IMG/VR virus record: IMGVR_UViG_3300027374_000001
DNA length: 64,000 nucleotides
DNA from: a virus
Lineage: Duplodnaviria; Caudoviricetes
Reading direction: 5' to 3' (one strand)
Under the pieces are notes generated by a model. The model made no database searches and was not told the DNA's origin. It worked only from the letters and a program-made list of their open reading frames with translations. Both the position numbers and the translations under genes were made by a program. Below are positions 20-18,828 of the stretch, one piece after another. How positions within the stretch are numbered: position 1 is the first letter of the stretch; each line of letters opens with the position of its first letter.

Positions 20-444
20 ATGAGTAGAGGAATAATCACCCCCCCCCCCAGATAAAAACTAAAATATCTGACAATGTTACTATGGTCATGTTAACGGATT
101 ATATTGAGCTAGAATCTAGAACTATTGAAGTTGAGTTTTACAACTCAATATTTGATTATGACGCTATTGGGATTAATATAAACGATTACAGTTCATATCC
201 ACAAATAATATCATCGGTGGTTAACGGTTATAATCCGATGCTTAAACAATTTGTTATGTTTGGATTGCTAGAGAGTGTAAATAATGGCGGAATTGATAAT
301 CCAATAGTATTCAGCATGGAAGATAGTAATAACGACACGACTGGTAAAAAATGGAGTTTATCAAAACGATCCTTCTTATTATTAACTGATGGAACCTATG
401 CTGATATTAGTGTAATCTGTTTTGTTGGTTTGAGATATAATTAG
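20..444 (+). CDS. Small tail-module protein (putative receptor-binding domain), frameshifted at a C11 tract
   Basis: ATG at 20 reads MSRGIITPPPR* through C11 (39-49). One extra C joins it to the open frame of ORF 82..444 (141 aa). Shares S-I-x-D/N-Y/F and C-terminal G-x-K/R patterns with 6025..6470 and 16621..17044. Lies at the window edge, so base quality is uncertain. Confidence 0.55.
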
Positions 445-463
445 CTTAAAATTAGCATCCCTA

Positions 464-475
464 AACATCATATTA
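464..475 (+). promoter_or_regulatory. Late-type phage promoter AACA-N6-TA(A)
   Basis: AACATCATATTAA upstream of 505. The motif recurs at 16 sites upstream of transcription units and matches the AR9 late consensus AACA-6N-TA. Confidence 0.7.
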
Positions 476-504
476 ATTTAGTGATAGAAAGGAGTTTACG
501 TATA

Positions 505-2343
505 ATGGCGATTGGAACTACGTTAGACAAAGACCAACTTAATCTTTTGGCTATAACAGATCTTTTGCATGAGTCTCACCTTGAAGATTCTGATATACTG
601 TTGTTTCAGGATGAAGAGAATACTAAGCGTATAACTTTCCGAGAGTTTAGGGATGCTTTGATAACAGATAAAGATAACCCGTCCGAGCATAAGTTATTTT
701 CATCTTTTCATATTAATTCTCTTCTCCAAGAATATGAAAACGTATTGGAGAGAGATTTTGGACAATTATCCGGGGAAATCAAAAGCATAAAAGAGAATTA
801 CAGTAATACGGAACAGGTTAGAGAAATGCTCAATGAGTTTGCAAAGACCGTTCCTGACCTATCTGAAACTAATAATATTAAGGAAGCATTAGATGCGAAA
901 AGGGATATACAGATTCCTATTACTGGGGCTGATATTGCTACTGGTTCAGATGAAGACAAGATTCAACCTGAGAATCTTTCCTATAAAGTAATATCTATGA
1001 TGGTAGGAACAACACCAATAGATATAGCTACAGTACCAGAGGGAGGATGGAATCAAGAGGATATAGCTCCAAAGGCAATCAACGCATCAAAACTTTCCAG
1101 ACAATATAGATTCCGTGGGCATTTTCCCGAGGGAAATATTAATCTTTTCGTAGATGATGGTCTCTATTTGTTAGGAGCAACAGTAGAAGGATTACCAACT
1201 GTAGAAGATGACGATGAGCCGGAACCGAGATTACTTGAAGTTCTTAACTTTGGCCCAAATAATAATATAATCCAAAGGATTTATTATGTGGATGATAAGG
1301 GAGAGGATACAAGACCCTATTTTGAAAGGAAATGCTTATTAAGCAGAATAGCAGTTACAAAATTCGGTAAAGTGTATCCTATAACAGAAAGTTTCAGAAT
1401 CACCAGAGAAATGATTAATGATGCTTTCCTAAATGCCGGGGAGCCGGAAATAACTGATGTATTTGATTTAGTTATTGATAATGACTATCACGTAAAAAGA
1501 GGAACAAAGAATCTTCCGAATGATCAATACGATTTTACCGTATCTGTAAGAAATTACGGAGAAAGAATAGAATATCAAGCTAAATCTATTACATTAGATA
1601 GGTGTGAGATATTTATATGCAATGCATATTATAATTCTTCTCGTCAGAGAGTCCATACAGAATGGTATAATGTTTCATCTACAAAATTGTCTAGATTAGA
1701 AGGTAAGAGGGTTCATCTTTTCGGAGATGGAGTATGTTTTGGTCTTGGTAGTACAGATATACCCTCTAAATCATGGCCAGCATTGCTATCATCCAGATAT
1801 GGAGTTTATATAAATAACCATGCCTTAGGAGATGCAACATTTGGTCATTATGAGGATGAAGTATTAGCGGAGCGGTCAGTGATTCAACAGATAGAAACAG
1901 CAAGGGTTGACGATGCTGACATCGCAATCTTGTGGGCTGGTTCTAATGATTATAGAACAGTTTTATCCGTAATAGGAGATAATGATTCTAATAATGATAG
2001 GTCTTTTAAAGGTTCTATTAATCTTTGCATAAAGAAGTTATTAGAGAAAAAGCCAGACATAAAGATTTTATTAGTGACTCCTCTGTTTCGTGCTAGGTTA
2101 AATGCTGATGACATTCGCAACAGCGATGATACATTAGTTGGTGGAAGAACTTTAAAGGACTTTAGTAAGGCTATGATTGAAATATCTGAATATAATCATA
2201 TCCCATGTTTGGATCTACATTCTACTTCTATGATTAATAAGATGAATTTTACTGTTTATCTTAAGGATAGGCTGTATTTGAATGATACTGGTCATGATTT
2301 AATTGCTGATAAAATATTCAAAGCATTAGATTTCTATTGTTAA
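505..2343 (+). CDS. Tail/baseplate appendage protein with C-terminal SGNH/GDSL-like domain (catalytic residues substituted)
   Basis: AGGAG RBS before ATG 505. C-terminal blocks LFGDGVCFG, WAGSND, LLVTP and DRLYLNDTGH follow the SGNH pattern. N-terminal fibre-anchor motif present. Confidence 0.7.
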   Translation: MAIGTTLDKDQLNLLAITDLLHESHLEDSDILLFQDEENTKRITFREFRDALITDKDNPSEHKLFSSFHINSLLQEYENVLERDFGQLSGEIKSIKENYSNTEQVREMLNEFAKTVPDLSETNNIKEALDAKRDIQIPITGADIATGSDEDKIQPENLSYKVISMMVGTTPIDIATVPEGGWNQEDIAPKAINASKLSRQYRFRGHFPEGNINLFVDDGLYLLGATVEGLPTVEDDDEPEPRLLEVLNFGPNNNIIQRIYYVDDKGEDTRPYFERKCLLSRIAVTKFGKVYPITESFRITREMINDAFLNAGEPEITDVFDLVIDNDYHVKRGTKNLPNDQYDFTVSVRNYGERIEYQAKSITLDRCEIFICNAYYNSSRQRVHTEWYNVSSTKLSRLEGKRVHLFGDGVCFGLGSTDIPSKSWPALLSSRYGVYINNHALGDATFGHYEDEVLAERSVIQQIETARVDDADIAILWAGSNDYRTVLSVIGDNDSNNDRSFKGSINLCIKKLLEKKPDIKILLVTPLFRARLNADDIRNSDDTLVGGRTLKDFSKAMIEISEYNHIPCLDLHSTSMINKMNFTVYLKDRLYLNDTGHDLIADKIFKALDFYC

Positions 2344-2360
2344 AGAAAGGAGGCAATACT

Positions 2361-3974
2361 GTGGAAGAAGTAAAAATTATAGAATTGACTGAGAGAGATA
2401 CGGTTGATAGTAATCATTATGTCATAACGGAGACAGATGATGGTACAAGAAAAGTAAAAGCAAAGAATCTTCGTTCTTTAGCAGCAAAGTCTCTGTACTT
2501 TGACAGCGTTGAGGACATGAAAACTTCTGATAACCAACTGGTAGAGGGTGATATATGCACTACCTTAGGATATTATGAACCCGGAGACGGAGGGGGTTCA
2601 GTATATCATATTGAATACAACCCTGGAGTTGTTGAAGATAAAAGATATGTGCATTATTTATCTTATTCTGATACTTTAAGAGCGGTGATATTTTTAGATG
2701 ATACAGTAAATGTGCATCAATTCGGTGCATATGGAGACGGCTCTCATGATGATTCTGCTGCTATTCAAGCTGCAATAGATTCTGGAAAGAGAGTGCAGTT
2801 CAATCCTGATTGCAATTATGTGGTGAGGAAAGCCTTATCAGTCACAGAAGCTGGTACTACCCATATTGATGGTTATGGATGTACTATTACTCCTAAGTAT
2901 TGTGAGGCATTTGTAATTGGCAAATCTGGTGTGGCTAATAATTACTTAAAGATTTGCAATTTTGTTATTAATGCTATCGGTGCTGATCCTACTGCTATTA
3001 GTATATTGAACTGCAATGATGTGGTACTAGATAGAATAAAGTTTAATACTATTAGGACAAGAGCTATAACAGTTAAATGCTCTAGAGTGGTATTTACCAA
3101 TCTGTCTATGTACGGAGAGAAGAATATAACTCAATATGGAATTGTACTAGATTCTGTGAGTAAAGATTCTGATACTCCGGCGGGGTGTGAATACAATAAT
3201 GATGTATCTATTCGTGACATTACTGTTGTTGATGTAAGATACGGCATTTATGGATATAAGTGTCATACATCTGGCAAAGCTCATGTGTGTTCGATTGATA
3301 AAGTTAGAGTAGAGAGAACAGCATCTTCTGCAAATAATTATATACTTGCATATATACTGTGTAATATGGAATTGATATCTATTCGTGATTACACTGGTGT
3401 GAGAACAACTGATGCGAATAGATTATATAATGCATTGTATATTGGTGCTCAGACTTCTCAAGTTAGAGCATTTGTTGAGAATCTATTCTTATTTGGTAAG
3501 AGAACAATTGATTTGGCTTCTACTACCGGAGTAGTTACATTATCCGGAACAATAAGAAATCTTTTTGGTTCTTCTATTGCATCTGCGTCTTTGTTCGGGG
3601 ACCTTGCTGGCGAAGTATATTCTAACGTGTTATGGGATGAGAATATCGCTGCTAATCTGTTTACAGTAGCTGGAGACGCAACTGGTAGGTTATATGATTC
3701 TAACAGCCCTCTTATGTATACAGAGAGAACTAATAGCACGTCTAGAATCAATCTTACTAAAGATAAGAAAAATCAATGTTTAGATACAACGATTAATGTA
3801 ACTGGAATAGACGGAGGAATCGATGGCCAAATTATTGCTGTCAGGTCTTCTTCTAATAGATCTCTGATAAATGCGCAGCATAATATGGAGTTGGAAAGTG
3901 CTACAGTTACACTATCTCCGCATAAGTATGTATTGTTACAACGCAGAAGTGGTGTATGGCAACAAATTTCGTAA
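2361..3974 (+). CDS. Tail spike with pectate-lyase-like beta-helix (putative depolymerase)
   Basis: TLGYYEPGDGGGSVY and VNVHQFGAYGDGSHDDSAAIQAAID are typical tail-spike motifs, followed by beta-helix-like repeats. AGGAGG precedes GTG 2361. Confidence 0.8.
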   Translation: MEEVKIIELTERDTVDSNHYVITETDDGTRKVKAKNLRSLAAKSLYFDSVEDMKTSDNQLVEGDICTTLGYYEPGDGGGSVYHIEYNPGVVEDKRYVHYLSYSDTLRAVIFLDDTVNVHQFGAYGDGSHDDSAAIQAAIDSGKRVQFNPDCNYVVRKALSVTEAGTTHIDGYGCTITPKYCEAFVIGKSGVANNYLKICNFVINAIGADPTAISILNCNDVVLDRIKFNTIRTRAITVKCSRVVFTNLSMYGEKNITQYGIVLDSVSKDSDTPAGCEYNNDVSIRDITVVDVRYGIYGYKCHTSGKAHVCSIDKVRVERTASSANNYILAYILCNMELISIRDYTGVRTTDANRLYNALYIGAQTSQVRAFVENLFLFGKRTIDLASTTGVVTLSGTIRNLFGSSIASASLFGDLAGEVYSNVLWDENIAANLFTVAGDATGRLYDSNSPLMYTERTNSTSRINLTKDKKNQCLDTTINVTGIDGGIDGQIIAVRSSSNRSLINAQHNMELESATVTLSPHKYVLLQRRSGVWQQIS

Positions 3975-3989
3975 AGGAGGATATTATAA

Positions 3990-4415
3990 ATGCCTGATGT
4001 AAGAAATTTATCTACAGGTCAAACTCCATCACAAGTAGTATATGATGGTAAGTTAATTTATGAGCTGGTTAAAGTTCAAACCTTAAGAGATACAGACTTA
4101 TTTGCGATATCCACAACAGATAGCTTGACAAGAGCTGTATCTTTTAAACAAATAAAAACTTCAATTAGTAGCGATTATTATAGTATTACTGATATAGATA
4201 ATTTGCTAGATAGTATAAGAAGGCAAATTCAAAATCTTAATCAAGATATTTTTAATCTTCGTGCTGAAGTTAATGAAGATATAAGTGATTTACGAAACCT
4301 TATAAACACCACTAAAGTGGAATTGGAAAATATGATTAGAAACTGGATAAGCTACGGTAAAGAAATCCCAACCTCATTGAATACCGGTAGATTATACATC
4401 CAGTGGTTTGATTAG
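3990..4415 (+). CDS. Tail-fibre adaptor protein with coiled coil
   Basis: Anchor-type N-terminal motif, heptad coiled coil, and C-terminal GKEIPTSLNTGRLYIQ motif typical of fibre junctions. Confidence 0.55.
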   Translation: MPDVRNLSTGQTPSQVVYDGKLIYELVKVQTLRDTDLFAISTTDSLTRAVSFKQIKTSISSDYYSITDIDNLLDSIRRQIQNLNQDIFNLRAEVNEDISDLRNLINTTKVELENMIRNWISYGKEIPTSLNTGRLYIQWFD

Positions 4416-4429
4416 GGGTGGTGATTTAG

Positions 4430-6007
4430 ATGGCTGAAGAGGTTCGTTATCTAAATTTATATGGTAGGTGTACACATTGCGGATCTAAAGTAACATGGGT
4501 ATGGTTTGAAATTAAACTTTCTGTAAGTCCAAGTAGCGACAGAACACATTATGTACTAAAAATTAATGCAAGATCAAATGCCAGTGCAGCTGCTGGTTCC
4601 GGAGGTACTCCGTATCAGTGGAATGCCGATAATATCCCGATGACAGTATCATATATAGAGGAAATAAAAAATGCTAATGGTACTATTACTAAACAAACAC
4701 ATAGCATAGTTTTCAATATATCAGTAGAAGGATACTACAAGCCTGGGGGAGGGATATATGACTTAGACGGGCCATGGAACGAAAAGATACAATCACAGGC
4801 TATGCATACTGGAAAGGTTGGTAAAATAACCTTTACCAATATTTCGGTTGATCCTCCAATTGGGGGCGTGACAGGAAGTCTTAAATATGTATCTCATAAC
4901 GGTTATGTGACTGGGTTCATTCCAGATTCCAGCGACCCGGTGCTCGAAATCCCAACTAATAATATTCCATTAATACAGCCTCCAGTTTTAGGAAGCATAG
5001 CTAATAGTAATCCTTATACCAACCCATCCGATAACCAAGTTAAATCCGGAGTTTCAAAATCTATTAATTCTATCAGTTTAAGTTGGAAATTGTCCAGTGG
5101 AGATCCGCCTACCCGAATGTGGTATAGGCTTAATGGTGGCCGTTGGGTAGAAATAAGTACGATGTATAGTTGTACCATTACGGGGTTAACAGCAGGTACA
5201 TCTTATAAAGTGGAGATACAGGGACAAAATGAAGCTGGAAATAGTAATATCTTGACCATAAATGTGAGAACGAGAAATGCTCCTCCTGTTGTAGCGTTGA
5301 GGGTATCTTCTATCAATTTGGAACAAATAACTTTTACATGGAATTCCAATAAAGATTTAGCAAAGGCATTCTTTAGTATAGATGACGGAAGCTTTACAGA
5401 AATTTCTGGAGTTAGTGGGAAGTTGGGAACCTTTACTGCAAAATGGTTTAATCCAAATACCGAGCATACTATAAGATTTTATGGTATATCTACTGCTGCT
5501 TTAGATTATTTAACATCGTCTACTGTAAGTGCATCTGGAACTACGTTAGATAGATCACGTATTAAACCTGTAACTATGCAACCATTTGGATGTGAAATAA
5601 CTCTTGCATTTACTTGTAAATCATCATATCCATTAAAGCTTAAAATAACAGTTACTGGTAAAGAAAGCAGAAGTGCAACATTCTCTTATGACAATATACA
5701 AAGAACAGCAGAGAATGTAAGTTATACATGGAGACCAACACAAGCGGAGCTCGACAGTATATATAGATGCTACACTGATACCAATAAGGTAACGATGGAT
5801 TTTTGCCTTACTACACATGGAGAATGGAAAGATTGGGATGATACAAGCAATGGCCATGATCTTGTATTAACCGGAATAGCAAAAACGGCACATATAGGCG
5901 TCAACAAAGTTCAGAAGCGAGGACAGTGCTTTATTAGTATCGACGGAGAGCCAAAAAGAGCTGTTACGTGGATTGGAATAAATGGTGTACCCAAAAGAGG
6001 TATATAA
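4430..6007 (+). CDS. Fibronectin type III domain virion protein
   Basis: SISLSW...ITGLTAGTSYKVEIQGQNEAGNS is an FN3 signature, followed by a second FN3-like repeat. Confidence 0.7.
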   Translation: MAEEVRYLNLYGRCTHCGSKVTWVWFEIKLSVSPSSDRTHYVLKINARSNASAAAGSGGTPYQWNADNIPMTVSYIEEIKNANGTITKQTHSIVFNISVEGYYKPGGGIYDLDGPWNEKIQSQAMHTGKVGKITFTNISVDPPIGGVTGSLKYVSHNGYVTGFIPDSSDPVLEIPTNNIPLIQPPVLGSIANSNPYTNPSDNQVKSGVSKSINSISLSWKLSSGDPPTRMWYRLNGGRWVEISTMYSCTITGLTAGTSYKVEIQGQNEAGNSNILTINVRTRNAPPVVALRVSSINLEQITFTWNSNKDLAKAFFSIDDGSFTEISGVSGKLGTFTAKWFNPNTEHTIRFYGISTAALDYLTSSTVSASGTTLDRSRIKPVTMQPFGCEITLAFTCKSSYPLKLKITVTGKESRSATFSYDNIQRTAENVSYTWRPTQAELDSIYRCYTDTNKVTMDFCLTTHGEWKDWDDTSNGHDLVLTGIAKTAHIGVNKVQKRGQCFISIDGEPKRAVTWIGINGVPKRGI

Positions 6008-6024
6008 AGAAAGGAGAAAATAAA

Positions 6025-6470
6025 ATGAGCAATTTAGGAAATATGTCTACCGAATTATCGAACGGGGGGGGGTAGTTTTATTTGAGTCGGATTTTGATAA
6101 TGGGTTAGGCTTAACTAGTCAAATAAAACTTAATGATAATATAAATAATTTTGAATCAATAGTATTATATTTATACAACAGCACCGCAACTGTCGGTTAT
6201 AAACTTCAGTGTGTTCCGGGCTTGAACGTTAAAAAACCAAACAAATGTATAGCTTCCGGAATTGATTCTGTAATTTTAAACAACGGAACAGACAATTGTG
6301 CTATAGATTTATTTACTGTTGAGTTAACAATCGTGGGGTCAAACGATACTTTAGCGCGCGGTGCGCTATCTGTCTCGCGAGTATTGTTCAAATCCGATGG
6401 AACGTTTACAATAACTAAATACGATACTAGTGCATGGAGAGTATGTAAAGTAATAGGATATAAAAAATAG
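6025..6470 (+). CDS. Small tail-module protein, frameshifted at a G9 tract
   Basis: AAGGAG RBS. ATG 6025 reads MSNLGNMSTELSNGGG*. G10 gives ...GGGVVLFESDFDNGLGLTSQIKLNDNINNFESIVLY... continuing into ORF 6222..6470 (148 aa). Confidence 0.7.
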
Positions 6471-6489
6471 TATAAAGAGGTACAAGATT

Positions 6490-6949
6490 ATGAGTAAAGG
6501 AATAATCACCCCCTCCCCCAGATAAAAACAAACCAATTATCTTTCATGAAGTAATTATTAGTAAAGAAATTGAGATAAACGCAACCCAAGTTGCAACTTT
6601 ATCTATATCAACCGGTAATACATATAAGAAGTTACTTTTAGATAATGATCAGTTGCTTTATGGGTTATATATAGATTCTGATATTGAATATATTGATTAT
6701 GGCGGCAACGAAGAGCCAACGTGGAAAACTATTTATAGTGGTATTAATCTTTTTAGAAAGATTGGTACTTATGAATATTCCGTTGATAATATTCCATTTA
6801 TTGATTCGTACGCAGACAAATTCAATATATCATTTAGAGTTCAACAATCGGATATACGATTTTTATCTGAAAGATTTGAATGGCCAAGAGGTGCTTCATA
6901 CAAAATAAAAATAAATAGTTTTGGGCATTTAACCGCCGGAGGCGTATAA
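6490..6949 (+). CDS. Small tail-module protein, frameshifted at C5-T-C5
   Basis: ATG 6490 reads MSKGIITPSPR*. The +1 frame is open from 6506 through ORF 6653..6949, so loss of one C gives 152 aa. The 5' end is nearly identical to 20..59. Confidence 0.6.
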
Positions 6950-6973
6950 TAATAGATAAAGGAGGAATTAAAT

Positions 6974-8095
6974 ATGCATCTGGGAAATATTGACATAAAA
7001 GATTCTATTACATTCGAGCAAGCAACTCAATTAGCAAACGTTGAATCTGGAGATTCTATGAGTGTTGCACTTGGCAAACTATCTAAACTATATGCTACTT
7101 TAGAAAATACTATTCTAAATTCGGATTTGAAACCGAATTCTATTTTACAGACAAATAATACTGGAAAAATCAGTAGTTCAGATATATCAAAAGATTTATT
7201 AAAGAATCTTAAAATGGTTCAATTTGGACCAGACGAGACAAAAACTACATTATTCACAAATGCACAATTCGGCATCACACCAATTAGTACAAACGAAAGT
7301 ACTCCATATCAAGAATTACCAAGTGGTGCACCGGAATGGAAATACGCTACAGGAATGATACTTAAAAGAACAAATGAAATCGGTGATATTGTTTTATACA
7401 GTTATCTATCTGGAAAAGTTGGGATTGTATCTACTGGAAACTCGGGGCAAACGTGGAGTGAATGGAATATTGATAAGGAAGACATTACTGAATTACAATT
7501 AGCATTAAACCCCAGTAATTTCGATTTCAAATTGAAGAAATATATAGATAGAGAATGCAGTTCACACATAGAAGTTTTGCAGAAATATTGGAATGAAGCG
7601 TTTGAGAATGTCCCTGCAGCAGGAGGATATAGGGTTATTCTCACTCATTTTGGTACTAGTGATGTGGTGTGGACTTGTTTCTCATATCATAACAAATTAT
7701 ACGGGTATGCGTTGCGTTTTTCACATCCAAATGATGATTTCTCAATCCCTCAATTTTATACAATCAGAAATGGAACGTGGACAAAAAACGAATTGGTATT
7801 CAAGAGCAGTTTTCAAGACTTTGCTATTATAATTTCTTCTCATAATATAGTTCCCAGCTTGCCTGGTGGTATGATCAATACTGCAGATAACACTATAACC
7901 ATTCCTGCTGGGTACTATTATCTGTCCTATTTACCCCCTACGGTCGATCATGACCAAATACATGTATATAATATATTTATTAGTCATCCTAATGAAAATA
8001 CTATTGGCATTAGAACTAGTTTCTCCAATAGAGGAAATGCAGAAGCTAAGAATTTTACCATTACAGTTCCATTATTATTTTTAAAATCTATTTAG
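6974..8095 (+). CDS. Tail fibre protein
   Basis: NVESGDSMSVALGKLSK fibre motif, knob-like segments ending TWSEW and RNGTW, tail-module context. Confidence 0.65.
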   Translation: MHLGNIDIKDSITFEQATQLANVESGDSMSVALGKLSKLYATLENTILNSDLKPNSILQTNNTGKISSSDISKDLLKNLKMVQFGPDETKTTLFTNAQFGITPISTNESTPYQELPSGAPEWKYATGMILKRTNEIGDIVLYSYLSGKVGIVSTGNSGQTWSEWNIDKEDITELQLALNPSNFDFKLKKYIDRECSSHIEVLQKYWNEAFENVPAAGGYRVILTHFGTSDVVWTCFSYHNKLYGYALRFSHPNDDFSIPQFYTIRNGTWTKNELVFKSSFQDFAIIISSHNIVPSLPGGMINTADNTITIPAGYYYLSYLPPTVDHDQIHVYNIFISHPNENTIGIRTSFSNRGNAEAKNFTITVPLLFLKSI

Positions 8096-8104
8096 ATTAA
8101 GAAT

Positions 8105-8137
8105 AGCCGTACAGCATAAAGCTGTACGGTTTTCTTT
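8105..8137 (+). terminator. Intrinsic terminator
   Basis: AGCCGTACAGC-ataaa-GCTGTACGGTT followed by a T run. Confidence 0.8.
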
Positions 8138-8151
8138 GTCGTTATAGGTGA

Positions 8152-8163
8152 AACATCATATTA
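8152..8163 (+). promoter_or_regulatory. Late-type promoter AACA-N6-TA(A)
   Basis: AACATCATATTAA, identical to 464..476, directly after a terminator. Confidence 0.7.
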
Positions 8164-8190
8164 ATTAACCCAAGAAAGGAGTTTAGAGTC

Positions 8191-8562
8191 ATGGCTGATG
8201 ATTTAAGTGGAAAGTCTTTATTAGACGTAAAGGATATAAATGACCTTGAAGAGATAGGAAAAGTTCAAGGTAAAAATTATCTACTCATAGTACAAAATGA
8301 AAAATCTAAAAGAGTAACATTAGATACTATTGCTGGATATATGGCCGCGGTTATTAATGTAGTACCAGGTTCAGTTGGGACTTTATTCAGCAATGAAGGC
8401 GGGAATGTATTAGTAATACCGAAAGGTGAATCCATTCCTGTAAATAGGAGAGTTCCTGGAAACTTTTACATAGAGGAATGTGACCAAGTATCTATTAGAT
8501 CTCAGATAAATCTACCCATTTCTGTTGGTATAAGCAGACAGTTAGGGCTAAAGAGAGTATAA
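8191..8562 (+). CDS. Virion appendage adaptor protein
   Basis: N-terminal motif shared with 505, 2361 and 3990 (INDLEEIGKVQGKNYLLIVQNEKSKRVTL). Confidence 0.5.
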   Translation: MADDLSGKSLLDVKDINDLEEIGKVQGKNYLLIVQNEKSKRVTLDTIAGYMAAVINVVPGSVGTLFSNEGGNVLVIPKGESIPVNRRVPGNFYIEECDQVSIRSQINLPISVGISRQLGLKRV

Positions 8563-8576
8563 GGAGGTGAGTAAAA

Positions 8577-11099: not shown

Positions 11100-11165
11100 T
11101 AAAATGATTCTCCTACACCCAGTTGGGTGTAGGGGCGTTTTTGTGAGTTTGCATTTTCTTGATTA

Positions 11166-11173
11166 TATATTAT
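11166..11173 (+). promoter_or_regulatory. Early-type promoter motif TATATTAT
   Basis: GATTATATATTATGACTATGAA. Related copies at 32311(-), 39093(-), 53349(-), 58237(-), 58887(+) and 61079(+, TATATCAT). Confidence 0.5.
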
Positions 11174-11237
11174 GACTATGAATTAGAATAATATTATCTC
11201 ATAGAGAGAATATAAGAGGAAAGGAGGTCAATGCCAC

Positions 11238-11282
11238 ATGCAGGAAGATGATGAATTATTGACATTAGTTATTGACGACTAA
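11238..11282 (+). CDS. Putative 14-aa acidic micro-peptide MQEDDELLTLVIDD
   Basis: AAGGAGG RBS 10 nt upstream. Lies between terminators and behind an early-type promoter. Confidence 0.35.
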   Translation: MQEDDELLTLVIDD

Positions 11283-11350
11283 GTAGTCATTTTACATTAT
11301 AAATGGATAATCCATCAACTTCCCTCATAAAGAGAAATACAAAGAAGAAT

Positions 11351-11396
11351 ACCCAGTAAGGCATGAAAACCTTACTGGGTGAGTCTTTATTTTTTG
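11351..11396. terminator. Terminator hairpin between convergent units
   Basis: ACCCAGTAAGG-catgaaaa-CCTTACTGGGT. Confidence 0.7.
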
Positions 11397-12049
11397 TTAA
11401 TATGCATAACCAATTCATCAGATGCAACTACTTTATTCGTATCTTTACGCTTTATTTGTACAGATAAAGTTACATTTTCAATCGATGAATTGCTTGGAAT
11501 CACCTCAACTGCCCATTCCATTTTCCCATCTGCTACAAAATCAGCAAACTTGGAACCGAATTTCTTCCCTAACACGAATGTATTCGGGTTACACAGCTGA
11601 AAAGTTGCATCTCTGCCTTTAGCAGATAGGATTCCATAAAGCGAACTGTTGATATTACCATCGTTCTTAGGGTCGTATTCTATAAATACAGTATTTCTAC
11701 CAGATTCGCTTGGATCTGTATATTCTACTGGATTTATGCATAGAACAATATTAGAAACTCGCGGTAATGGCTCATATGGCGGTTCAATCGGTTCTCGATC
11801 AAAAGATTCAACCTGTTGATTAAGCTTATTTGTTGTTGATGATTTGGTTATGGTGTGCGATGCCCCATCGTATTTTTCTACGACTTTAGACGTCAATAGA
11901 ACTCCATTTTCATCAAAAACGTCGGCTTTATCCATACAATAGTTTATTTCTCTTTCGTTCAGATCAAGAGTCATTTCACCATTTATGGGTTTATTTTTTG
12001 GTAATACTCCTACAATGGAGCATCCTCTTGGTTTTATTGTTACTATCAT
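11387..12049 (-). CDS. Hypothetical virion protein (N-terminal domain paralogous to 33811..34254)
   Basis: IVTIKP..SIVGVLP...DLNEREINYCMDKADVF resembles KVRVVP..SIPAILP...ELTKMEIMRCMNFGDVF. Confidence 0.55.
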   Translation of the reverse strand: MIVTIKPRGCSIVGVLPKNKPINGEMTLDLNEREINYCMDKADVFDENGVLLTSKVVEKYDGASHTITKSSTTNKLNQQVESFDREPIEPPYEPLPRVSNIVLCINPVEYTDPSESGRNTVFIEYDPKNDGNINSSLYGILSAKGRDATFQLCNPNTFVLGKKFGSKFADFVADGKMEWAVEVIPSNSSIENVTLSVQIKRKDTNKVVASDELVMHINKK

Positions 12050-12073
12050 TTTTGATATTCCTCCTGGATTTCA

Positions 12074-12544
12074 TTAATCGCTTATTGGAACAGCTGCAAA
12101 TTTCGCTTTGAATTTGTATGTTCCACTACTTAAATCGCGAGTTGCATCCAATGCAAATTCTCCTGAAAAATAGTCGATTCCTAATATATACTTACTTTTA
12201 TAATAATCTTGACCCAGTAAAAAATTTACAGTGGATGATGCGATTTTAGTACTATATTGATATAGATCCATCTTAACTTTTGATTCACTTTTGATGCCAT
12301 CAAGAATGCATGAAGCGGAAGCATCATAAGTTGATACCTTTGCATCGGAGCTATTTAATATGCTCACACTAACAGATACTAAGTATTTTGAAAATGCTTT
12401 TTTGCTATCTACGAGTATTTGATGCACAAAAGCGCTTGATTGTTCCATATTTCCTAAATTACTACCGGAAAGAGTTACATTTAAACCATATTCACTGCTT
12501 ACAGTAGGTAACTTACAGGGTATAGATAAATTTCCAATACTCAT
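12074..12544 (-). CDS. Small tail-module protein (MSIGN leader family), RBS inside a hairpin
   Basis: 156 aa. Begins MSIGN like 16621..17044. Its GGAGG can pair with an upstream CCTCC. Confidence 0.65.
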   Translation of the reverse strand: MSIGNLSIPCKLPTVSSEYGLNVTLSGSNLGNMEQSSAFVHQILVDSKKAFSKYLVSVSVSILNSSDAKVSTYDASASCILDGIKSESKVKMDLYQYSTKIASSTVNFLLGQDYYKSKYILGIDYFSGEFALDATRDLSSGTYKFKAKFAAVPISD

Positions 12545-12586
12545 GATTTATCCCTCCTCTCAAATGGAGGAATAGTATCTATATAA

Positions 12587-12634
12587 TTATTTCTTACCCC
12601 CCCCCCCAGGGGCAGTTAACATTCCTTTACTCAT
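12587..12634 (-). CDS. Leader mini-ORF MSKGMLTAPGGGGKK containing G11
   Basis: ATG overlaps the end of the upstream gene and has the same ATGAGTAAAGGAAT start as 6490. G11 at 12597-12607. Confidence 0.45.
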   Translation of the reverse strand: MSKGMLTAPGGGGKK

Positions 12635-12965
12635 AATAATCGTCTCCCATCACCGAATCGATAAGCTCTCCGTCCTCATCGTCATAGTCATTTTCGGATG
12701 CTAATTCTCTTATATCTTCAGCCATGCAATCCTCTGGACACATAGCATCGTCATCTTCTGGGTTGTACTCTATGGCTTCACTATCCTCAGTAAGATTAAT
12801 GGTTCCGTTTTCTGCCATTTTTCTAACTAAAGAATCTGCAAGATCATACTCCCCAGCATCTGCAGCAGCTATAGCTTCATCGAATCTTTGATCTGTTCTG
12901 ATAGTCATATCGACTTCATCAAAATCGGAATTTATTGCCTTTAATTCACTATTATTCAGATTCAT
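12627..12965 (-). CDS. Acidic hypothetical protein (possible inner-head protein)
   Basis: Very D/E-rich, contains LTE motif, AAGGAG RBS before 12965. Confidence 0.55.
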   Translation of the reverse strand: MNLNNSELKAINSDFDEVDMTIRTDQRFDEAIAAADAGEYDLADSLVRKMAENGTINLTEDSEAIEYNPEDDDAMCPEDCMAEDIRELASENDYDDEDGELIDSVMGDDYYE

Positions 12966-13125
12966 TGTTATCGTCTCCTTCCGTTTCATAATTACCTTCC
13001 AAAATATCTTTATCCGTTGCTAATTCTGCAAGATAATCAATGTGACTACCGATATCATCATCTGCAACAGATTCTTCGATATTTGTTCTTAAACTATTTA
13101 CAAGCTTAATGTCTAATGACTGCAT
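12952..13125 (-). CDS. Small acidic protein, 57 aa (absent from ORF track)
   Basis: AAGGAG RBS and AACA-N6-TAA promoter at 13154..13165. Reads MQSLDIKLVNSLRTNIEESVADDD...NNESE. Confidence 0.55.
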   Translation of the reverse strand: MQSLDIKLVNSLRTNIEESVADDDIGSHIDYLAELATDKDILEGNYETEGDDNNESE

Positions 13126-13179
13126 TGTAGTGGTCTCCTTTCCATGAATACATTATATGCATGTTTTGAGCATATTATT

Positions 13180-14343
13180 TCATTGAACAAGACTGTTACT
13201 ACCTAACTTTTCTTTTTCTACTACCATATAACTTATGCTAATAGCCAAATCTAATGCTTCTTCTGTAAATGAATCTATTGTTGGAAGATCTATTGTTCCA
13301 TAGAAAGTTACGCTGTCGTTTGCCGGATTACTATTGGTTATAATCACCGGTATGATAACGTTTGATATATAATTCGGAGTAGCTTTTGGTCTATCGCCAT
13401 ATCCACATGAAGCTCTTGCGGTGGCTGTTATACACAGATTTCCAATATAGTTAGAGATTTCGACAGTATTACTACCAGCAAATTTAACAGGAATAGTACA
13501 TAACTCTACAGTTAACGGGTCCCACGCACCGCTATCGAAAAATGGTTGTATAATTGCAGTTCCACATGCTAATACCTTAGGACCTACAACATCTTCTACG
13601 GTGGGGAGATTTGTAGTTACTTCTACTGTAACTTCTGTATACGTAGACAAATCGGGGGCGTTTGTTTCTGACCAATGCTTATCTACAAAGTAAGTGCAGC
13701 TATCGGTTTCACTTATCAGTTTAGCGGATATACCGGACGGTTGACTCGTTTGTTTGATGCATAAAAACATTCTCCTATCGGATTTATAAATGTGAAAGTT
13801 TTCAGGTAAAGCCTTATCTGAAATACATTTATCATTATTAATTTTGAGTATATAACTGACCGAATCAGTAGATAAATCTAATAATACCTCTGCTTTTTCA
13901 TTGTTCAGTTCCAATACAACAGGAATAAAAGTATTATACTCTGGAGAAGTGATAAATGCCGATTTATTGACTCTGGTATAATTAGTTTTCTTTATAGGAA
14001 TCAGTTGGAGCACATTAAATATAGCATCCAAATCCAATTCATCGTGTCGATCGTAAATAAAAAGCTCAGCGGTTTCGATTTCGTCTACTAATGTATGACA
14101 AGCAACTAATAGCTTCTTGTTATCTTTGTCTGTTAACTCTGATAAAAATGCATCGACTCCGGTATAAACGCATACCTTAACATCGCTTATCTTGGTTCTT
14201 ACTCCATTGATATCTACAAACTGCTCTCCGGTGTCTGAAGTGTAAATGACTTTATCCTCTTCATTTATTGGGACTTTATCTATATTAGCGCTAGGTACAG
14301 TTCCAATAATTGGTATCATGAGTTCCTTATTTGTTGTACTCAT
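13180..14343 (-). CDS. Putative virion/fibre-associated protein
   Basis: N-terminal VIYTSDTGEQFVDINGVRTKI resembles fibre junction motifs; tail-module context. Confidence 0.45.
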   Translation of the reverse strand: MSTTNKELMIPIIGTVPSANIDKVPINEEDKVIYTSDTGEQFVDINGVRTKISDVKVCVYTGVDAFLSELTDKDNKKLLVACHTLVDEIETAELFIYDRHDELDLDAIFNVLQLIPIKKTNYTRVNKSAFITSPEYNTFIPVVLELNNEKAEVLLDLSTDSVSYILKINNDKCISDKALPENFHIYKSDRRMFLCIKQTSQPSGISAKLISETDSCTYFVDKHWSETNAPDLSTYTEVTVEVTTNLPTVEDVVGPKVLACGTAIIQPFFDSGAWDPLTVELCTIPVKFAGSNTVEISNYIGNLCITATARASCGYGDRPKATPNYISNVIIPVIITNSNPANDSVTFYGTIDLPTIDSFTEEALDLAISISYMVVEKEKLGSNSLVQ

Positions 14344-14484
14344 TTGATTTTCACCTCGTTTTCAAAAATTTAAAACTCAGTGGCTCAGAACCGAACCACT
14401 GAGCATTATTATTTTATAGTTCTATAAATGAAATGGTTTTACTTTAGCCGTACCAATTCTCTGGTGGCAACGGGTCAGGATTAG

Positions 14485-16596
14485 TTACTGACCCCCCCCC
14501 CCAAAGTTAACAAATTTACTTGTTACCGTAAGGGTTTGAGAATCTACGTAATCTTTAACGTTCATTTGAGAGCCATCCTCGTTTGTTACGCCTTCCAAAC
14601 CAGTAGCATCGTTAATGCTATTGTCTACATAGTCTTTAACCTTGACCGGCTGCTCTGTCGGGGCATCGGGATTTTCCGGGTCTGGATCAACCGGTCCCAT
14701 CATTTCTCCTACCACTCTTTCAGTTACAATCTGAGTAATAGACTCTATGGTCTTCTCATCTGTAGCAAAATCTGCTGGATCTACATAGAGACCACCAGCA
14801 CCTTCTCCCTCGGTAGCATCTACTTTAAGAAGGTTTCCGCCCTCTCTTGTAGCAACCTTGACATTTACTGATATCTCATTGGTCTGACTTACAGTAACCT
14901 TTGCAGTGGTTGTCTCTTTTCCGGTATATACATCTACAAGGGCTGCAGCAGGAATCTTTACTTCAGAATCATTATTCAGAACAAGAACGATTTCCTGTGT
15001 AGTTGTATCATATCTACCGCTACTGACAACAAGATCTTTGCCAAGGGCAATTATAAGATTTTCTGCAGTGCCGTCTTCTTTCTGCACCGGAAGAGTAATA
15101 GTTCTTGTCTCAGCATCATAAGACGGATTAGATACGCCTCCGGTCGGAATTACCGTCTTGGTAATTTCTTTTATTTTCAGCTCAATTGTTTGCTTCTCTC
15201 CAGCATTATTCGTAAAATCTACAGTAAATGTGCCGGTATTCTGATCAAATGTAGGACCAAATGCTATCCCTGCAAGTGCTATACTCTCAGAAGACTCCTC
15301 GAATCCGGTTCCATCTTCGGTAACTTTATTCTTATGCGTCACTAAAGTAGGAACCTCTGCTGTATCAGACAGCGTAACTCCTTCTACTGTTCCAATAGGA
15401 ATCAGCTGTTTAACATCCGGGGTTTGCCCCGCGGTATGAGTAACAACTTCAAGTCCTTTAGTATCAGTTATAGCGTTTTCTCCTTCCGTCTTGGTTGGAT
15501 AAGCCACCCTAGTTACAGCATTATGATCATCCTTAAGAGAAGAGAGATCAATTGTTACTGTCTCATCGTCGGTACCTTCTTCATGCGCAGCGTCTGTAGC
15601 TTTCTTAAACGTAAGAGCCCCAGTTTCATTATTAAAGTCCGGATCATATACAGCACCAGGAATAGCAATCACGCTAGATTTAGTTTCACTACCTTCTGTA
15701 CGCTGCACAACTACACGGTTAGAACCTTTTTCTGAAGCTGTGATTGTCTTCACGCCATCTGCTCCACTTGCAGTAGCCATAGCAACTAATTTGAAGTTCT
15801 TTCCTTCTTCGCTAGATTCTTCAAGGGTATAAACACTAATAGTACCGTCAGCATTTTTAACCTTAACAGTTTGCCCAGCATACATATCTGGATGTGATGC
15901 AGCTAAAGATTCAACTGCTGTATAATCATCAAATACTTCTGGGAACTTCAACTCGATATATAATTTGTTTGATTTTAAATTTTTTACACCGTCAATGCTG
16001 CTGAATATAGCATAAATAACATGTAAACCAAGTCTGTTAGGAACATATGTATTACCTGGCGTAATACCATGCTGATCCCATTCTTTAGTATCTGAATTAA
16101 AATTACGAATATTAGCACTGTGATCAAGACAAACAGTACCATTCGCTATCTCATCTACATTTGAGTCTATTTGAAAATCTACATCGCCAAGATCTGTTGA
16201 TCCACTAGATTTTATATAAACTGTCTTTATGTAAGAACGGTCAAGGCCATCGCCATATATTTTATAGTCTGAATCTGTGTTAGGGGTTAGTGTAACCTTT
16301 GTTCCAACAGGGTTTTCTAGCAATGCTGCCGCAAAATCATCAAGGGTTGCGCCGGCCGGAAGTGTCTTTGCCTGTTTTAATCCAGCACCGATCTCTCCAG
16401 TAACTTGGATATCGTTTTGTGTTCTCGGTGTTACTAATACTTGAGATGAATCTTCATCTACAAGCACAAGTTCTCCACCAGTTCCGTCCTCCTCTTTAGT
16501 AACGACAAAGTCTAATGGCCCCAACTTTTTAGAAGTAATAGCTGCTTCAATTGCTGATTTTGGGCCGCGTCCAATATTAATTGCATTTTTTGCCAT
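14485..16596 (-). CDS. Large acidic virion appendage/fibre protein ending in a G11 tract
   Basis: 703 aa with repeated beta-rich units (PDFNNETGALTF, PTFDQNTGTFTV, PSYDAETRTITL). Ends SKFVNFGGGGQ. Confidence 0.6.
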   Translation of the reverse strand: MAKNAINIGRGPKSAIEAAITSKKLGPLDFVVTKEEDGTGGELVLVDEDSSQVLVTPRTQNDIQVTGEIGAGLKQAKTLPAGATLDDFAAALLENPVGTKVTLTPNTDSDYKIYGDGLDRSYIKTVYIKSSGSTDLGDVDFQIDSNVDEIANGTVCLDHSANIRNFNSDTKEWDQHGITPGNTYVPNRLGLHVIYAIFSSIDGVKNLKSNKLYIELKFPEVFDDYTAVESLAASHPDMYAGQTVKVKNADGTISVYTLEESSEEGKNFKLVAMATASGADGVKTITASEKGSNRVVVQRTEGSETKSSVIAIPGAVYDPDFNNETGALTFKKATDAAHEEGTDDETVTIDLSSLKDDHNAVTRVAYPTKTEGENAITDTKGLEVVTHTAGQTPDVKQLIPIGTVEGVTLSDTAEVPTLVTHKNKVTEDGTGFEESSESIALAGIAFGPTFDQNTGTFTVDFTNNAGEKQTIELKIKEITKTVIPTGGVSNPSYDAETRTITLPVQKEDGTAENLIIALGKDLVVSSGRYDTTTQEIVLVLNNDSEVKIPAAALVDVYTGKETTTAKVTVSQTNEISVNVKVATREGGNLLKVDATEGEGAGGLYVDPADFATDEKTIESITQIVTERVVGEMMGPVDPDPENPDAPTEQPVKVKDYVDNSINDATGLEGVTNEDGSQMNVKDYVDSQTLTVTSKFVNFGGGGQ

Positions 16597-16620
16597 TGGT
16601 TTGTTTCTCCTTTGCTTTAT

Positions 16621-17044
16621 TTATTTTATTCCATATATTTTTTCTATTGTACCCATGTATAAATTCATCATTCCATTTGGAGTGTATACACACGCTTTAA
16701 ATGAGTCTTCATTAAGAGTTATACTTTTTCCATTGGTAGAGATTGCAAATAATATAGCAGACGGTACATAACCAACTCGATCACCTATAAGCGTGCTATC
16801 TACTATCGGAATAGTATATGTAAGAGAATCACTTATGAACCTATTAATATTTTCTGCTTTAGGCACACTAAATGGATACAAATTACTATTTATTTTAAAA
16901 ATGATCATGTTATAATCATAGACAGATTTATCGTTTTCAATAGTTATGATATCTCCTGCTTTAAAACCATAATTATAATCTTTAGCTATAATTTCAATTT
17001 GCCCCCCCCATGGGGTTATTTGTATTTATATTTCCAATGCTCAT
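16621..17044 (-). CDS. Small tail-module protein, frameshifted at a G8 tract
   Basis: GGAGG RBS. ATG 17044 reads MSIGNINTNNPMGGAN*. G7 or G10 gives ...GGQIEIIAKDYNYGFKAGDIITIENDKSVYDYN joining ORF 16621..16908 (~140 aa). Confidence 0.7.
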
Positions 17045-17799: not shown

Positions 17800-17816
17800 C
17801 TCATTTCATTATAAAA

Positions 17817-18776: not shown

Positions 18777-18828
18777 TAAAAAATATTCCCCTTTCATAAT
18801 ATTAGCTTTTTATAAGCTTAATAAAATG

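What the first reader, a model, noticed from the sequence alone, without database searches (positions are those of the whole stretch)
20..17044. Family of small tail-module genes gated by poly-G/poly-C tracts: putative phase-variable receptor-binding repertoire
Seen: four genes have an RBS, an ATG, a short related leader (MSRGIIT, MSNLGNMST, MSKGIIT, MSIGNINT), then a homopolymer and a stop within a few codons. The tracts are C11 at 39, G9 at 6064, C5TC5 at 6509 and G8 at 17002 (minus strand). A one-base change restores proteins of 141, 148, 152 and 140 aa. Three share a domain pattern (SIFDYDAIGI / NINNFESIVL / SVYDYNMIIF, ending VGLR / IGYK / YGIK). G/C runs of 8 or more are otherwise rare in this AT-rich DNA and cluster in the tail module, and I saw no such frameshifts in core genes. 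Two genes need +1 nt and two need -1 nt, which fits slipped-strand length variation better than one programmed ribosomal frameshift. Established: Campylobacter Fletchervirus phages use hypermutable poly-G tracts to switch receptor-binding proteins. Inference: a combinatorial ON/OFF bank of interchangeable fibre tips, with the leader as a common attachment peptide.
Basis: partly seen in the sequence, partly recalled or inferred. Interest (0 to 1): 0.8.

Follow-up and report, generated by a model that had tools for sequence, protein, structure and literature searches.

The report
Poly-G/C on-off switches, jumbo-phage tail genes
An uncultured giant phage of a Gram-positive host keeps at least six small tail-region genes behind slippery runs of G or C that switch them in and out of frame, the trick known from Campylobacter phages, and other assemblies of the same phage carry the same genes switched on in different combinations.

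Summary
All four tracts, leaders and restored lengths (141, 148, 152, 140 aa) are as described.

G/C runs of 8 or more number 7 in 129 kb, against about 0.4 expected. All lie in the 31-kb tail-module end.

The decisive evidence comes from other assemblies. For A, B, C, D and G, public assemblies hold both a full-length ON protein with the leader and a truncated OFF call, with 100% identical bodies. F has an ON form 95% identical. Sister genomes carry different ON/OFF combinations. The IMG/VR copy differs from the window at tract A (C10 against C11).

This is a set of hypermutable contingency loci, as in Campylobacter Fletchervirus phages (Sorensen 2021), here in an AR9/PBS1-like jumbo phage.

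- The bodies are not detectably related to each other; only the two leader classes are shared.
- A receptor-binding role has moderate support for gene B alone, from fold matches to phage K gp144 and T7 gp17 tips on a low-confidence model.

New details are a portable leader-plus-tract cassette, a leader swap at the tract, and interrupted tracts in OFF genes.

This scan has found poly-G switches in phage fibre genes many times on other DNA.

The parts
20..444 (+). Gene A. Class I leader MSRGIIT, C11 tract at 39-49, 120-codon body. OFF here; C12, C9 or C6 would restore it (141 aa with C12).
   Evidence: The ON form P0005 (139 aa, MSGGIITPQIK, equivalent to C6) has a body identical to the OFF call P0001. 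The tract is C10 in the IMG/VR copy G000.
6025..6470 (+). Gene B. Class II leader MSNLGNMSTELSN, G9 tract at 6064-6072, all-beta body. OFF here; G10 gives 148 aa.
   Evidence: The ON forms P0011 (148 aa) and P0015 have bodies 100% identical to the OFF calls P0013 and P0014. Fold matches to the phage K gp144 C-terminal domains (Z 9.5) and the T7 gp17 tip (Z 6.9) come from a low-pLDDT model. The ESM Atlas neighbours are C-terminal parts of BppU_N and Phage_RBD_prop proteins.
6490..6949 (+). Gene C. Class I leader MSKGIIT, interrupted tract C5TC5 at 6509-6519. OFF here, and probably held OFF by the interruption; 152 aa if 10 nt long.
   Evidence: The ON forms P0026 and P0038 read MSKGIITPPPDKN, a pure C10. 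P0026 is identical in body to the OFF call P0037. The 43-nt cassette is repeated at 20-62.
16621..17044 (-). Gene D. Class II leader MSIGNINTNNPM, G8 tract at 17009-17002. OFF here; G7 or G10 gives 140 or 141 aa.
   Evidence: The ON form P0030 (141 aa, G10) has a body identical to the OFF call P0029.
12590..12634 (-). Element E. A class I-like leader MSKGMLTAP followed by G11 (12607-12597) with no body. With G10 it gives a 30-aa peptide that ends in a TGA overlapping the ATG of the next gene. It is probably a leftover switch cassette.
12074..12544 (-). Gene E2. A 156-aa gene with the class II leader MSIGNLS and no tract; an always-on member.
   Evidence: Cluster members are 156 or 158 aa, with no truncated forms.
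6974..8095 (+). A 373-aa protein with a class II-like N-terminus MHLGNIDI and no tract; an always-on member.
   Evidence: It gives a weak PHROG match at its N-terminus.
14485..16596 (-). A 703-aa fibre-like protein with G11 (14502-14492) coding its last residues, KFVNFGGGGQ*. The tract length varies between assemblies and changes only the C-terminal few residues.
   Evidence: The variants are FGGGGQ*, FGGGVSN* (G10) and FGGSN*; a sister allele, FGVNEPEVTG*, has no tract.
27616..27626 (-). An intergenic G11, 8 nt after the stop of a 173-aa ORF and 38 nt before the ATG of a DHFR-like gene. Its role is unknown.
505..6007 (+). Flanking host-recognition genes: an SGNH/GDSL-esterase fibre (505-2343), a pectate-lyase-like spike (2337-3974), a 141-aa coiled protein and a 525-aa FN3 protein.
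   Evidence: Pfam and PHROGs.
17047..22236 (.). Collagen-repeat fibre proteins (17047-17799 minus, 17817-18797 minus, 20191-22236 plus) and a 407-aa virion structural protein (18829-20052 minus) shared with AR9, PBS1 and S6.

Best explanation
The G and C runs are hypermutable homopolymer tracts (contingency loci). Each sits 6-17 codons into a small gene of the tail-fibre module, just after a conserved ribosome-binding site, start codon and leader.

Slipped-strand mispairing during phage DNA replication adds or removes bases. Each gene therefore flips heritably but reversibly between an in-frame ON state and two OFF states that stop within a few codons. The tract itself encodes a Gly or Pro linker, so changes of three bases are tolerated.

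The phage population thus carries a mixture of genotypes that display different combinations of small all-beta accessory tail proteins. These are most likely receptor-binding heads. They would be displayed alongside relatives that are always on (E2 and the 373-aa protein).

In most consensus genomes most switches are OFF. The interrupted tracts here (C5TC5 in C, GAG7 in G) sit in OFF genes; their ON forms elsewhere read through an unbroken run (C10, G11).

Shown: the tracts, their enrichment, ON and OFF forms with identical bodies, and different combinations between genomes.

Inferred: that slippage is the mutational mechanism, that the proteins are built into the virion, that they bind receptors, and any effect on host range.
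For: Anatomy.

Enrichment and clustering: 7 runs of 8 or more against 0.37 expected, all within 31 kb.

A DNA-level difference between two copies of the phage that are otherwise identical over 64 kb except one SNP and the first 19 nt: tract A is C11 in the window and C10 in G000.

ON and OFF forms in other assemblies:
- A: P0005 (ON) against P0001 (OFF), 120/120 identical.
- B: P0011 and P0015 (ON) against P0013 (OFF), 81/81.
- C: P0026 (ON) against P0037 (OFF), 97/97.
- D: P0030 (ON) against P0029 (OFF), 95/95.
- G: P0051 (ON) against P0048 (OFF), 105/105.
- F: P0044 (ON) against P0039 (OFF), 111/117.

Combinations differ between genomes. The 232,346-bp genome has B and C ON with A, D and G OFF. 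A 13.8-kb contig has A ON and the sister allele of B ON.

Controls:
- The tract-less neighbours E2 and H never vary in length across about 13 and about 30 contigs.
- The C-terminal tract of the 703-aa fibre also varies (G10, G11 and another form) although it barely changes the protein, which points to intrinsic instability.

Evidence on function:
- The genes lie in a tail-fibre context.
- The B model matches the phage K gp144 C-terminal domains (Z 9.5, rmsd 2.7, 102 aa), the phi812 baseplate RBP (Z 9.1), the monocin side fibre (Z 7.5) and the T7 gp17 tip (Z 6.9).
- The ESM Atlas model of B resembles C-terminal parts of BppU_N and Phage_RBD_prop proteins, TM 0.55-0.65.
- The two B alleles keep both ends and diverge in the centre.

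Precedent: Sorensen et al. 2021, Cell Rep 35:109214, as summarised in bioRxiv 10.1101/2025.10.21.683753.
Against: - No reads were available, so heterogeneity within a population and the mutation rate are not shown.
Tract lengths elsewhere are therefore inferred from protein sequences.
- Contig counts from ENA, Logan and JGI may include the same samples more than once.
- ON forms are rare, roughly 5-15% of contigs per gene (about 60% for the sister allele of B) against the one third expected from unbiased slippage. All six genes are OFF here. The genes may be mostly dispensable or even counter-selected.
- The fold evidence rests on one protein and a model with mean pLDDT 47. The model of A failed (pLDDT 30).
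- The bodies share no detectable homology, so a single common function is assumed, not shown.
Confidence: 0.78

Rival explanations
1. The switching is real, but the products are not receptor-binding proteins. They could instead be fibre chaperones, decoration proteins, or proteins that act inside the cell, such as anti-defence or superinfection-exclusion factors that happen to lie in the tail module.
For: There are no Pfam or PHROG families for any body, and the bodies are mutually unrelated. Most are OFF in most genomes. Published phage contingency loci occur in genes of many functions.
Against: All six genes sit directly beside fibre or spike genes. The best structural matches of B are all phage fibre-tip or receptor-binding domains. 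The B alleles have conserved ends and a variable centre.
Confidence: 0.22
2. The tracts are recoding sites. The OFF genes are expressed at a low level by ribosomal frameshifting on the CCC or GGG runs, or by RNA-polymerase slippage, and the DNA length differences are incidental.
For: Nothing here tests this. From general knowledge, runs of Pro (CCC) and Gly (GGG) codons are shift-prone and long homopolymers can cause transcriptional slippage. Every gene is OFF at the DNA level in this genome, yet every body remains open.
Against: - The shift required differs from gene to gene, +1 or -1.
- The same cassette is read in different frames in A and C.
- In-frame DNA variants exist for all six genes.
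- Tract length is not conserved, as a programmed site would require.
Leaky slippage as an added layer is not excluded.
Confidence: 0.1
3. The frameshifts are sequencing or assembly errors at G/C homopolymers, and the genes are really all in frame.
For: Long G/C runs are hard to sequence. Both this contig and the window's source contig break at or next to a tract.
Against: - The OFF state is the majority call in independent JGI, ENA and Logan assemblies.
- The differences reach 5 nt and include base interruptions: C6 against C11, C10 against C5TC5, G11 against GAG7.
- Six of seven tracts are identical between the window and G000.
- No reading frame in the region examined breaks at an A/T run; the longest A/T runs are 8.
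Confidence: 0.04
4. The genes are decaying pseudogenes. The tracts are mutational hotspots that killed spare fibre genes, and the ON copies elsewhere are simply lineages that have not yet broken.
For: All six are OFF here, two tracts are interrupted, and E is a cassette with no body.
Against: - Each body remains open for 120-160 codons in 34% GC DNA. By my estimate that is roughly 5e-5 by chance for each.
- No second lesion is seen in any body.
- ON and OFF forms have identical bodies, which means recent switching rather than old decay.
- Start codons, ribosome-binding sites and leaders are intact.
Confidence: 0.06

Closest known systems
Hypermutable polyG tracts in receptor-binding-protein genes of Campylobacter Fletchervirus phages (Sorensen et al. 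2021, Cell Rep 35:109214; summarised in bioRxiv 10.1101/2025.10.21.683753 and cited in PMC12823448)
   Same: G runs of 7-11 bases lie inside coding sequence of host-recognition genes. Length changes move the frame and create subpopulations with different tail proteins.
   Different: - The phage here is an AR9/PBS1-like jumbo phage with a GH25 plus LysM endolysin, which points to a Gram-positive host.
- At least six small genes of 140-175 aa are gated near their 5' ends, behind two shared leader types.
- Both poly-G and poly-C lie on the coding strand.
- Most switches are OFF in the consensus.
- No phenotype has been tested.
Phage contingency loci in T2, T4 and other phages (Gomez, Barrick and Waters 2025, bioRxiv 10.1101/2025.10.21.683753)
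   Same: Homopolymer repeats in phage genes give reversible frameshifts and bet-hedging.
   Different: In the 41 BASEL coliphages that paper analysed, repeats of 6 bp or more are under-represented in tail-fibre genes. Here the tracts are long, made only of G/C, and concentrated in the tail-fibre module.
Receptor-binding head domains of phages of Gram-positive hosts: phage K gp144 C-terminal domains (PDB 5m9f), the phi812 baseplate RBP (9euf), and BppU or Phage_RBD_prop proteins
   Same: The predicted all-beta body of gene B superposes on these heads (Z 9.5 and 9.1; Atlas TM 0.55-0.65).
   Different: The known heads are C-terminal domains of proteins of 450-650 aa. Here the head stands alone behind a 13-residue leader and a Gly3 linker. 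There is no sequence similarity, and the model has low confidence.
Bacterial contingency loci: homopolymer phase variation of surface genes in Campylobacter, Neisseria and Haemophilus (from general knowledge; see also PMC10877375)
   Same: The tract sits early in the coding sequence, switching is combinatorial, and interruption of the tract stabilises a state.
   Different: The switch is carried by a virus and copied by a phage-encoded replication system.

Membership tests
Phage homopolymer contingency loci (Fletchervirus-type polyG switches) | A G/C homopolymer of about 7 or more bases inside a coding sequence, far more frequent than base composition predicts | tested here: met
   7 runs of 8 or more against 0.37 expected. 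Six lie 6-17 codons after a start codon.
Phage homopolymer contingency loci (Fletchervirus-type polyG switches) | Tract length differs between otherwise identical genomes and moves the gene in and out of frame | tested here: met
   At the DNA level, tract A is C11 in the window and C10 in G000. At the protein level, ON and OFF forms with 100% identical bodies exist for A, B, C, D and G.
Phage homopolymer contingency loci (Fletchervirus-type polyG switches) | Length heterogeneity within one population and a raised mutation rate | not testable with these tools
Phage homopolymer contingency loci (Fletchervirus-type polyG switches) | The gated gene encodes a receptor-binding or host-range protein | tested here: inconclusive
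   The context is a tail-fibre module. Gene B matches fibre-tip and RBP heads, but from a model with pLDDT 47. The model of A failed. C, D, F and G were not modelled; D had only an Atlas feature search, with no named family and no structure.
Phage homopolymer contingency loci (Fletchervirus-type polyG switches) | Switching changes adsorption or host range | not testable with these tools
   The phage is uncultured and its host is unknown.
Programmed ribosomal frameshift sites (for example tail chaperone G/GT) | A fixed slippery site, one direction of shift, conserved among relatives | tested here: not met
   The shifts needed are +1 for A, B and F and -1 for C, D and G. Tract lengths vary and in-frame DNA variants exist.
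   BLASTP gives E of 0.07 or worse. hhalign probabilities are 3.4% or lower for every match outside the leaders. A shared fold is not excluded: B and D have the same Atlas feature neighbours.

The most novel reading that the evidence does not exclude
The leader plus homopolymer is a portable switch cassette. The tract is both the on/off toggle and the crossover point at which leaders and unrelated head domains are recombined.

Three observations fit this.
- The 43-nt cassette is shared by A and C but read in different frames.
- The F body is found behind the other class of leader in another strain, joined exactly at the tract.
- E is a cassette with no body.

Many heads would then compete for one docking site through the shared leader. 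The phage would display roughly one of many at a time, a viral counterpart of antigenic variation with its own means of recruiting new heads.
Probability: 0.25. Interest if true: 0.75.

Novelty: new variant of a known kind. Interest (0 to 1): 0.55.

Why it matters
This would extend homopolymer phase variation of phage host-recognition genes from Campylobacter myoviruses to an AR9-like jumbo phage of a Gram-positive host, and to a bank of six or more genes.

A single phage genome sequence would then understate host-range potential, and genes called as 'frameshifted' in metagenomic phage genomes may be switches rather than errors.

The shared leader-plus-tract cassette suggests a way for a phage to place unrelated binding domains under stochastic control. 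This is testable by read-level tract histograms and by virion proteomics.

The mechanism itself is already published, and this scan has met it many times.

Tried and rejected
- Two metagenome scans found nothing: one with the 373-aa protein and one with a gapped DNA pattern across tract B.
- Viral-contig scans with the class I leader DNA, the 525-aa protein and the 703-aa protein found nothing.
- Megablast of 20 kb against cultured phages gave no match. tblastn of B against phages gave no match.
- Seven distant relatives (36% identity in the 407-aa protein) have no G/C run of 7 or more in the fetched loci, and none of the leader motifs.
- A whole-record search of five of those relatives found one G8 run, which lies at a contig end and looks like an artefact. 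The architecture therefore seems confined to this lineage.
- Pfam, PHROGs and a PDB sequence search gave nothing for the small proteins. The TPR protein P0027 is a chance hit.
- AlphaFold of A failed (pLDDT 30).
- Foldseek against BFVD with the weak B model gave only E of 1e-3 or worse, with many hits being tail-fibre proteins. I treat this as a weak lead.
- Homology between the bodies was rejected on sequence grounds.
- The sigma-70 promoter scan was uninformative: 71 sites against 82 expected.
Full report
**1. What is in the sequence**

The four reported genes are exactly as described.

| Gene | Start | Leader | Tract | Change needed | Restored length |
|---|---|---|---|---|---|
| A | ATG 20 | MSRGIIT | C11, 39-49 | +1 | 141 aa |
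| B | ATG 6025 | MSNLGNMSTELSN | G9, 6064-6072 | +1 | 148 aa |
| C | ATG 6490 | MSKGIIT | C5TC5, 6509-6519 | -1 | 152 aa |
| D | ATG 17044 (minus) | MSIGNINTNNPM | G8, 17009-17002 | -1 | 140 aa |

- Each has a Shine-Dalgarno-like site 6-10 nt upstream.
- Each stops 1-4 codons after the tract as it stands.

- G11 on the minus strand at 12597-12607 follows a third class I-like leader, MSKGMLTAP, but has no body behind it. This is element E. With G10 it gives a 30-aa peptide whose TGA overlaps the ATG of the intact 156-aa gene E2.
- G11 at 14492-14502 encodes the last residues of a 703-aa fibre-like protein.
- G11 at 27616-27626 is intergenic.

**2. The wider contig**

The window maps to an IMG/VR record of 129,475 bp, G000. 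In the 3.2 kb upstream of the window, that record holds two more gated genes.
- F has the leader MSQIGNVNVGIPNTLPP and a C7 tract. A +1 change gives 175 aa.
- G has the leader MSHLGSINTNISNMRGG and a G7 tract. A -1 change gives 147 aa.
- A G13 run lies at the very end of the contig.

So at least six small genes are gated, and all six are OFF in this genome.

G/C runs of 8 or more number 7 in 129 kb against 0.37 in Markov simulations. Runs of 7 or more number 9 against 1.7. All lie within 31 kb at the tail-module end, and the remaining 98 kb has none longer than 6.

**3. What phage this is**

- The 407-aa ORF next to the module is a virion structural protein shared with Bacillus phages AR9, PBS1 and vB_BpuM-BpSp and with Staphylococcus phage S6, at 25-30% identity.
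- Cluster records put sister genomes at 231-233 kb.
- A GH25 muramidase with three LysM repeats lies between F and G, which points to a Gram-positive host.
- The module contains an SGNH-esterase fibre, a pectate-lyase-like spike, an FN3 protein and several collagen-repeat fibres.

**4. Evidence for switching**

The window and G000 are identical over 64 kb apart from three things: one SNP, the first 19 nt (the window appears to start at a contig end), and tract A, which is C11 in the window and C10 in G000.

The protein collection is still informative, because gene callers report a truncated product when a gene is OFF and the full product with its leader when it is ON.

| Gene | ON form | OFF call | Body identity, ON vs OFF |
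|---|---|---|---|
| A | P0005, 139 aa, MSGGIITPQIK (C6) | 120 aa | 120/120 with P0001 |
| B | P0011 (148 aa), P0015 (167 aa from an upstream GTG), both G10 | 82 aa | 81/81 |
| C | P0026, P0038, 152 aa, MSKGIITPPPDKN (pure C10) | 98 aa | 97/97 with P0037 |
| D | P0030, 141 aa (G10) | 95 aa | 95/95 with P0029 |
| G | P0051, 148 aa, MSHLGNINTNISNMGGGVFLG (G11) | 105 aa | 105/105 with P0048 |
| F | P0044, 167 aa | 118 aa | 111/117 |

The combinations differ between genomes.
- The 232,346-bp genome has B and C ON and A, D and G OFF.
- The 233,381-bp genome has the sister allele of B ON and A and F OFF.
- A 13.8-kb contig has A ON and the sister allele of B ON.

Two controls support intrinsic tract instability.
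- The tract-less neighbours E2 (156 or 158 aa) and H (110 aa, about 30 contigs) show no truncated forms.
- The C-terminal tract of the 703-aa fibre also varies (FGGGGQ*, FGGGVSN*, FGGSN*), although this barely alters the protein.

**5. Why this is not error, recoding or decay**

*Assembly error* is unlikely for three reasons.
- OFF is the majority state in independent JGI, ENA and Logan assemblies.
- The differences reach 5 nt and include interruptions.
- Six of seven tracts agree between the two copies I could compare.

*A single programmed frameshift* is excluded as the main mechanism.
- The direction needed differs from gene to gene.
- In-frame DNA variants exist for all six genes.
- Leaky ribosomal or transcriptional slippage as an extra layer cannot be excluded.

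*Decay* is unlikely.
- Every body stays open for 120-160 codons in 34% GC DNA and carries no second lesion.
- ON and OFF forms have identical bodies.

One point remains unexplained. ON forms are rarer than unbiased slippage would give: roughly 5-15% of contigs per gene, against one third expected. The sister allele of B is the exception, at about 60%. This suggests a cost to the ON state, competition for a common site, or a mutational bias.

**6. Architecture of the switch**

There are two leader classes.

*Class I* (MS[KR]G[IM][IL]T, then the tract at once) occurs in A, C and E.
- It is a DNA cassette. The best direct repeat in the first 18 kb is 20-62 against 6490-6532: 43 nt, 93% identical, running from the ATG to 13 nt beyond the tract.
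- The shared sequence after the tract, AGATAAAAAC, is read as QIKT in A but as DKN in C. The same cassette therefore drives two bodies in different frames.
- At 11 nt both hit the TAA in the third frame.

*Class II* (M-S-x-(L/I)-G-N/S-(I/M/L/V)-x-(T/V), then the tract 12-17 codons in) occurs in B, D, F and G.
- It also occurs, without a tract, in E2 and the 373-aa protein.
- Different genes use different Ser codons (AGC/AGT against TCA). Its conservation therefore looks like protein-level conservation, and it may be a docking peptide. This is inference.

In another strain the F body carries the class I leader (P0044, MSKGIITPP-HNRYKIH), joined exactly at the tract. Together with the body-less cassette E, this suggests that the tracts are also recombination junctions. 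It rests on one protein record.

Two tracts here are interrupted where the ON forms elsewhere are pure: C5TC5 against C10 in C, and GAG7 against G11 in G. By analogy with bacterial contingency loci, this probably stabilises the OFF state (inference).

**7. What the proteins are**

- No Pfam, PHROG or PDB sequence match was found.
- The bodies are not detectably homologous to one another. hhalign finds only the leaders.
- The AlphaFold model of B is all-beta but weak (pLDDT 47).
- An exhaustive structural search with that model ranks four phage or phage-tail-like fibre-tip or receptor-binding domains at the top:

| Match | Z | Other |
|---|---|---|
| Phage K gp144 C-terminal domains (5m9f) | 9.5 | rmsd 2.7, 102 aa |
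| phi812 baseplate RBP (9euf) | 9.1 | |
| Monocin side fibre | 7.5 | |
| T7 gp17 tip | 6.9 | |

- The ESM Atlas's own model of B (pLDDT 0.70) resembles C-terminal parts of BppU_N, Phage_RBD_prop and ORF68_C proteins, with TM 0.55-0.65.
- B and D share Atlas feature neighbours.
- The two B alleles keep their N- and C-termini and diverge in the centre.
- The AlphaFold model of A failed.

I read B as a free-standing receptor-binding head behind a leader and a Gly3 linker. Extending this to the other five genes rests on context alone.

**8. Comparison with what is known, and verdict**

The mechanism matches the hypermutable polyG tracts of Campylobacter Fletchervirus receptor-binding genes (Sorensen 2021, as summarised and cited). 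It also fits the wider idea of phage contingency loci (Gomez et al. 2025). That study found homopolymers under-represented in coliphage tail-fibre genes. Here they are concentrated in the tail-fibre module.

Earlier notes of this scan report the same kind of switch in many other uncultured phages. I did not test those notes.

This case is a new variant of a known kind, for five reasons.
- It lies in a jumbo phage of a Gram-positive host.
- At least six genes are gated.
- Two leader classes are shared between genes.
- One leader class is a mobile cassette.
- The interrupted tracts sit in OFF genes.

Relatives at 36% identity have no such tracts.

My confidence that these are DNA-level on/off switches is about 0.85. 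My confidence that the products are receptor-binding heads is about 0.55.

Noticed in passing
window 1-19, compared with G000: The first 19 nt of the window differ from the IMG/VR copy at three positions, all changed to A (AAAAAAAGGAAAAAAAAAA against AAAATAAGGAGAAAATAAA). The window probably starts at the ragged end of a contig that broke next to tract A. G000 itself ends in G13.
   Followed up: partly
window 27616-27626: An intergenic G11 on the minus strand lies 8 nt after the stop of a 173-aa ORF and 38 nt before the ATG of a DHFR-like gene that has an N-terminal hydrophobic segment. It might affect transcription or translation of the nucleotide-metabolism genes.
   Followed up: no
window 26384-26417 and 26845-26878: A perfect 34-nt direct repeat lies at two successive gene junctions on the minus strand. 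It encodes the shared C-terminus KNNEQEENK, a stop, a GGAGG site and the next ATG. Two neighbouring proteins (153 aa and 246 aa) therefore end in the same nine residues.
   Followed up: partly
window 14485-14520, 17047-17070, and the L016 end (3464-3476): The motif KFV(N/K)FGG ends both the 703-aa fibre (then G11) and the 250-aa collagen-like protein (then GGAGGG, which serves as the ribosome-binding site of gene D). The contig-end G13 runs straight into GGGGQSAYDIW of another collagen-like protein. Poly-G may mark module junctions in the fibre genes.
   Followed up: partly
B alleles P0011 against P0012, P0016 and P0018: The two alleles of B are 55% identical overall. Residues 1-28 and the last 30 are almost invariant, and the centre is strongly diverged. 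In the second allele, some calls start at an ATG formed by AAT followed by the G run (MGGVVLFES, 137 aa), which would give a leaderless body in one OFF frame.
   Followed up: partly
L016 1161-2378 (minus), upstream of the window: A GH25 muramidase with three LysM repeats (the endolysin) sits inside the tail-fibre module, between gated genes F and G.
   Followed up: no
window 28498-29304 (minus): A 268-aa ORF with an HNH-like motif (EVNHKDG) looks like a homing endonuclease, in the region of the nucleotide-metabolism genes.
   Followed up: no
P0008 (A allele, one Logan contig): One assembly has a frameshift in the body of A at an A-run (GKKW becomes GKKMEF). This is the only body lesion seen in any cluster.
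   Followed up: no
window 17002-17016 and 12597-12612: In D and E a CCCC lies 1-2 nt before the G run (CCCCATG8 and CCCCTG11), so the start of the tract can fold back into a small hairpin. This is not seen in B or G.
   Followed up: no
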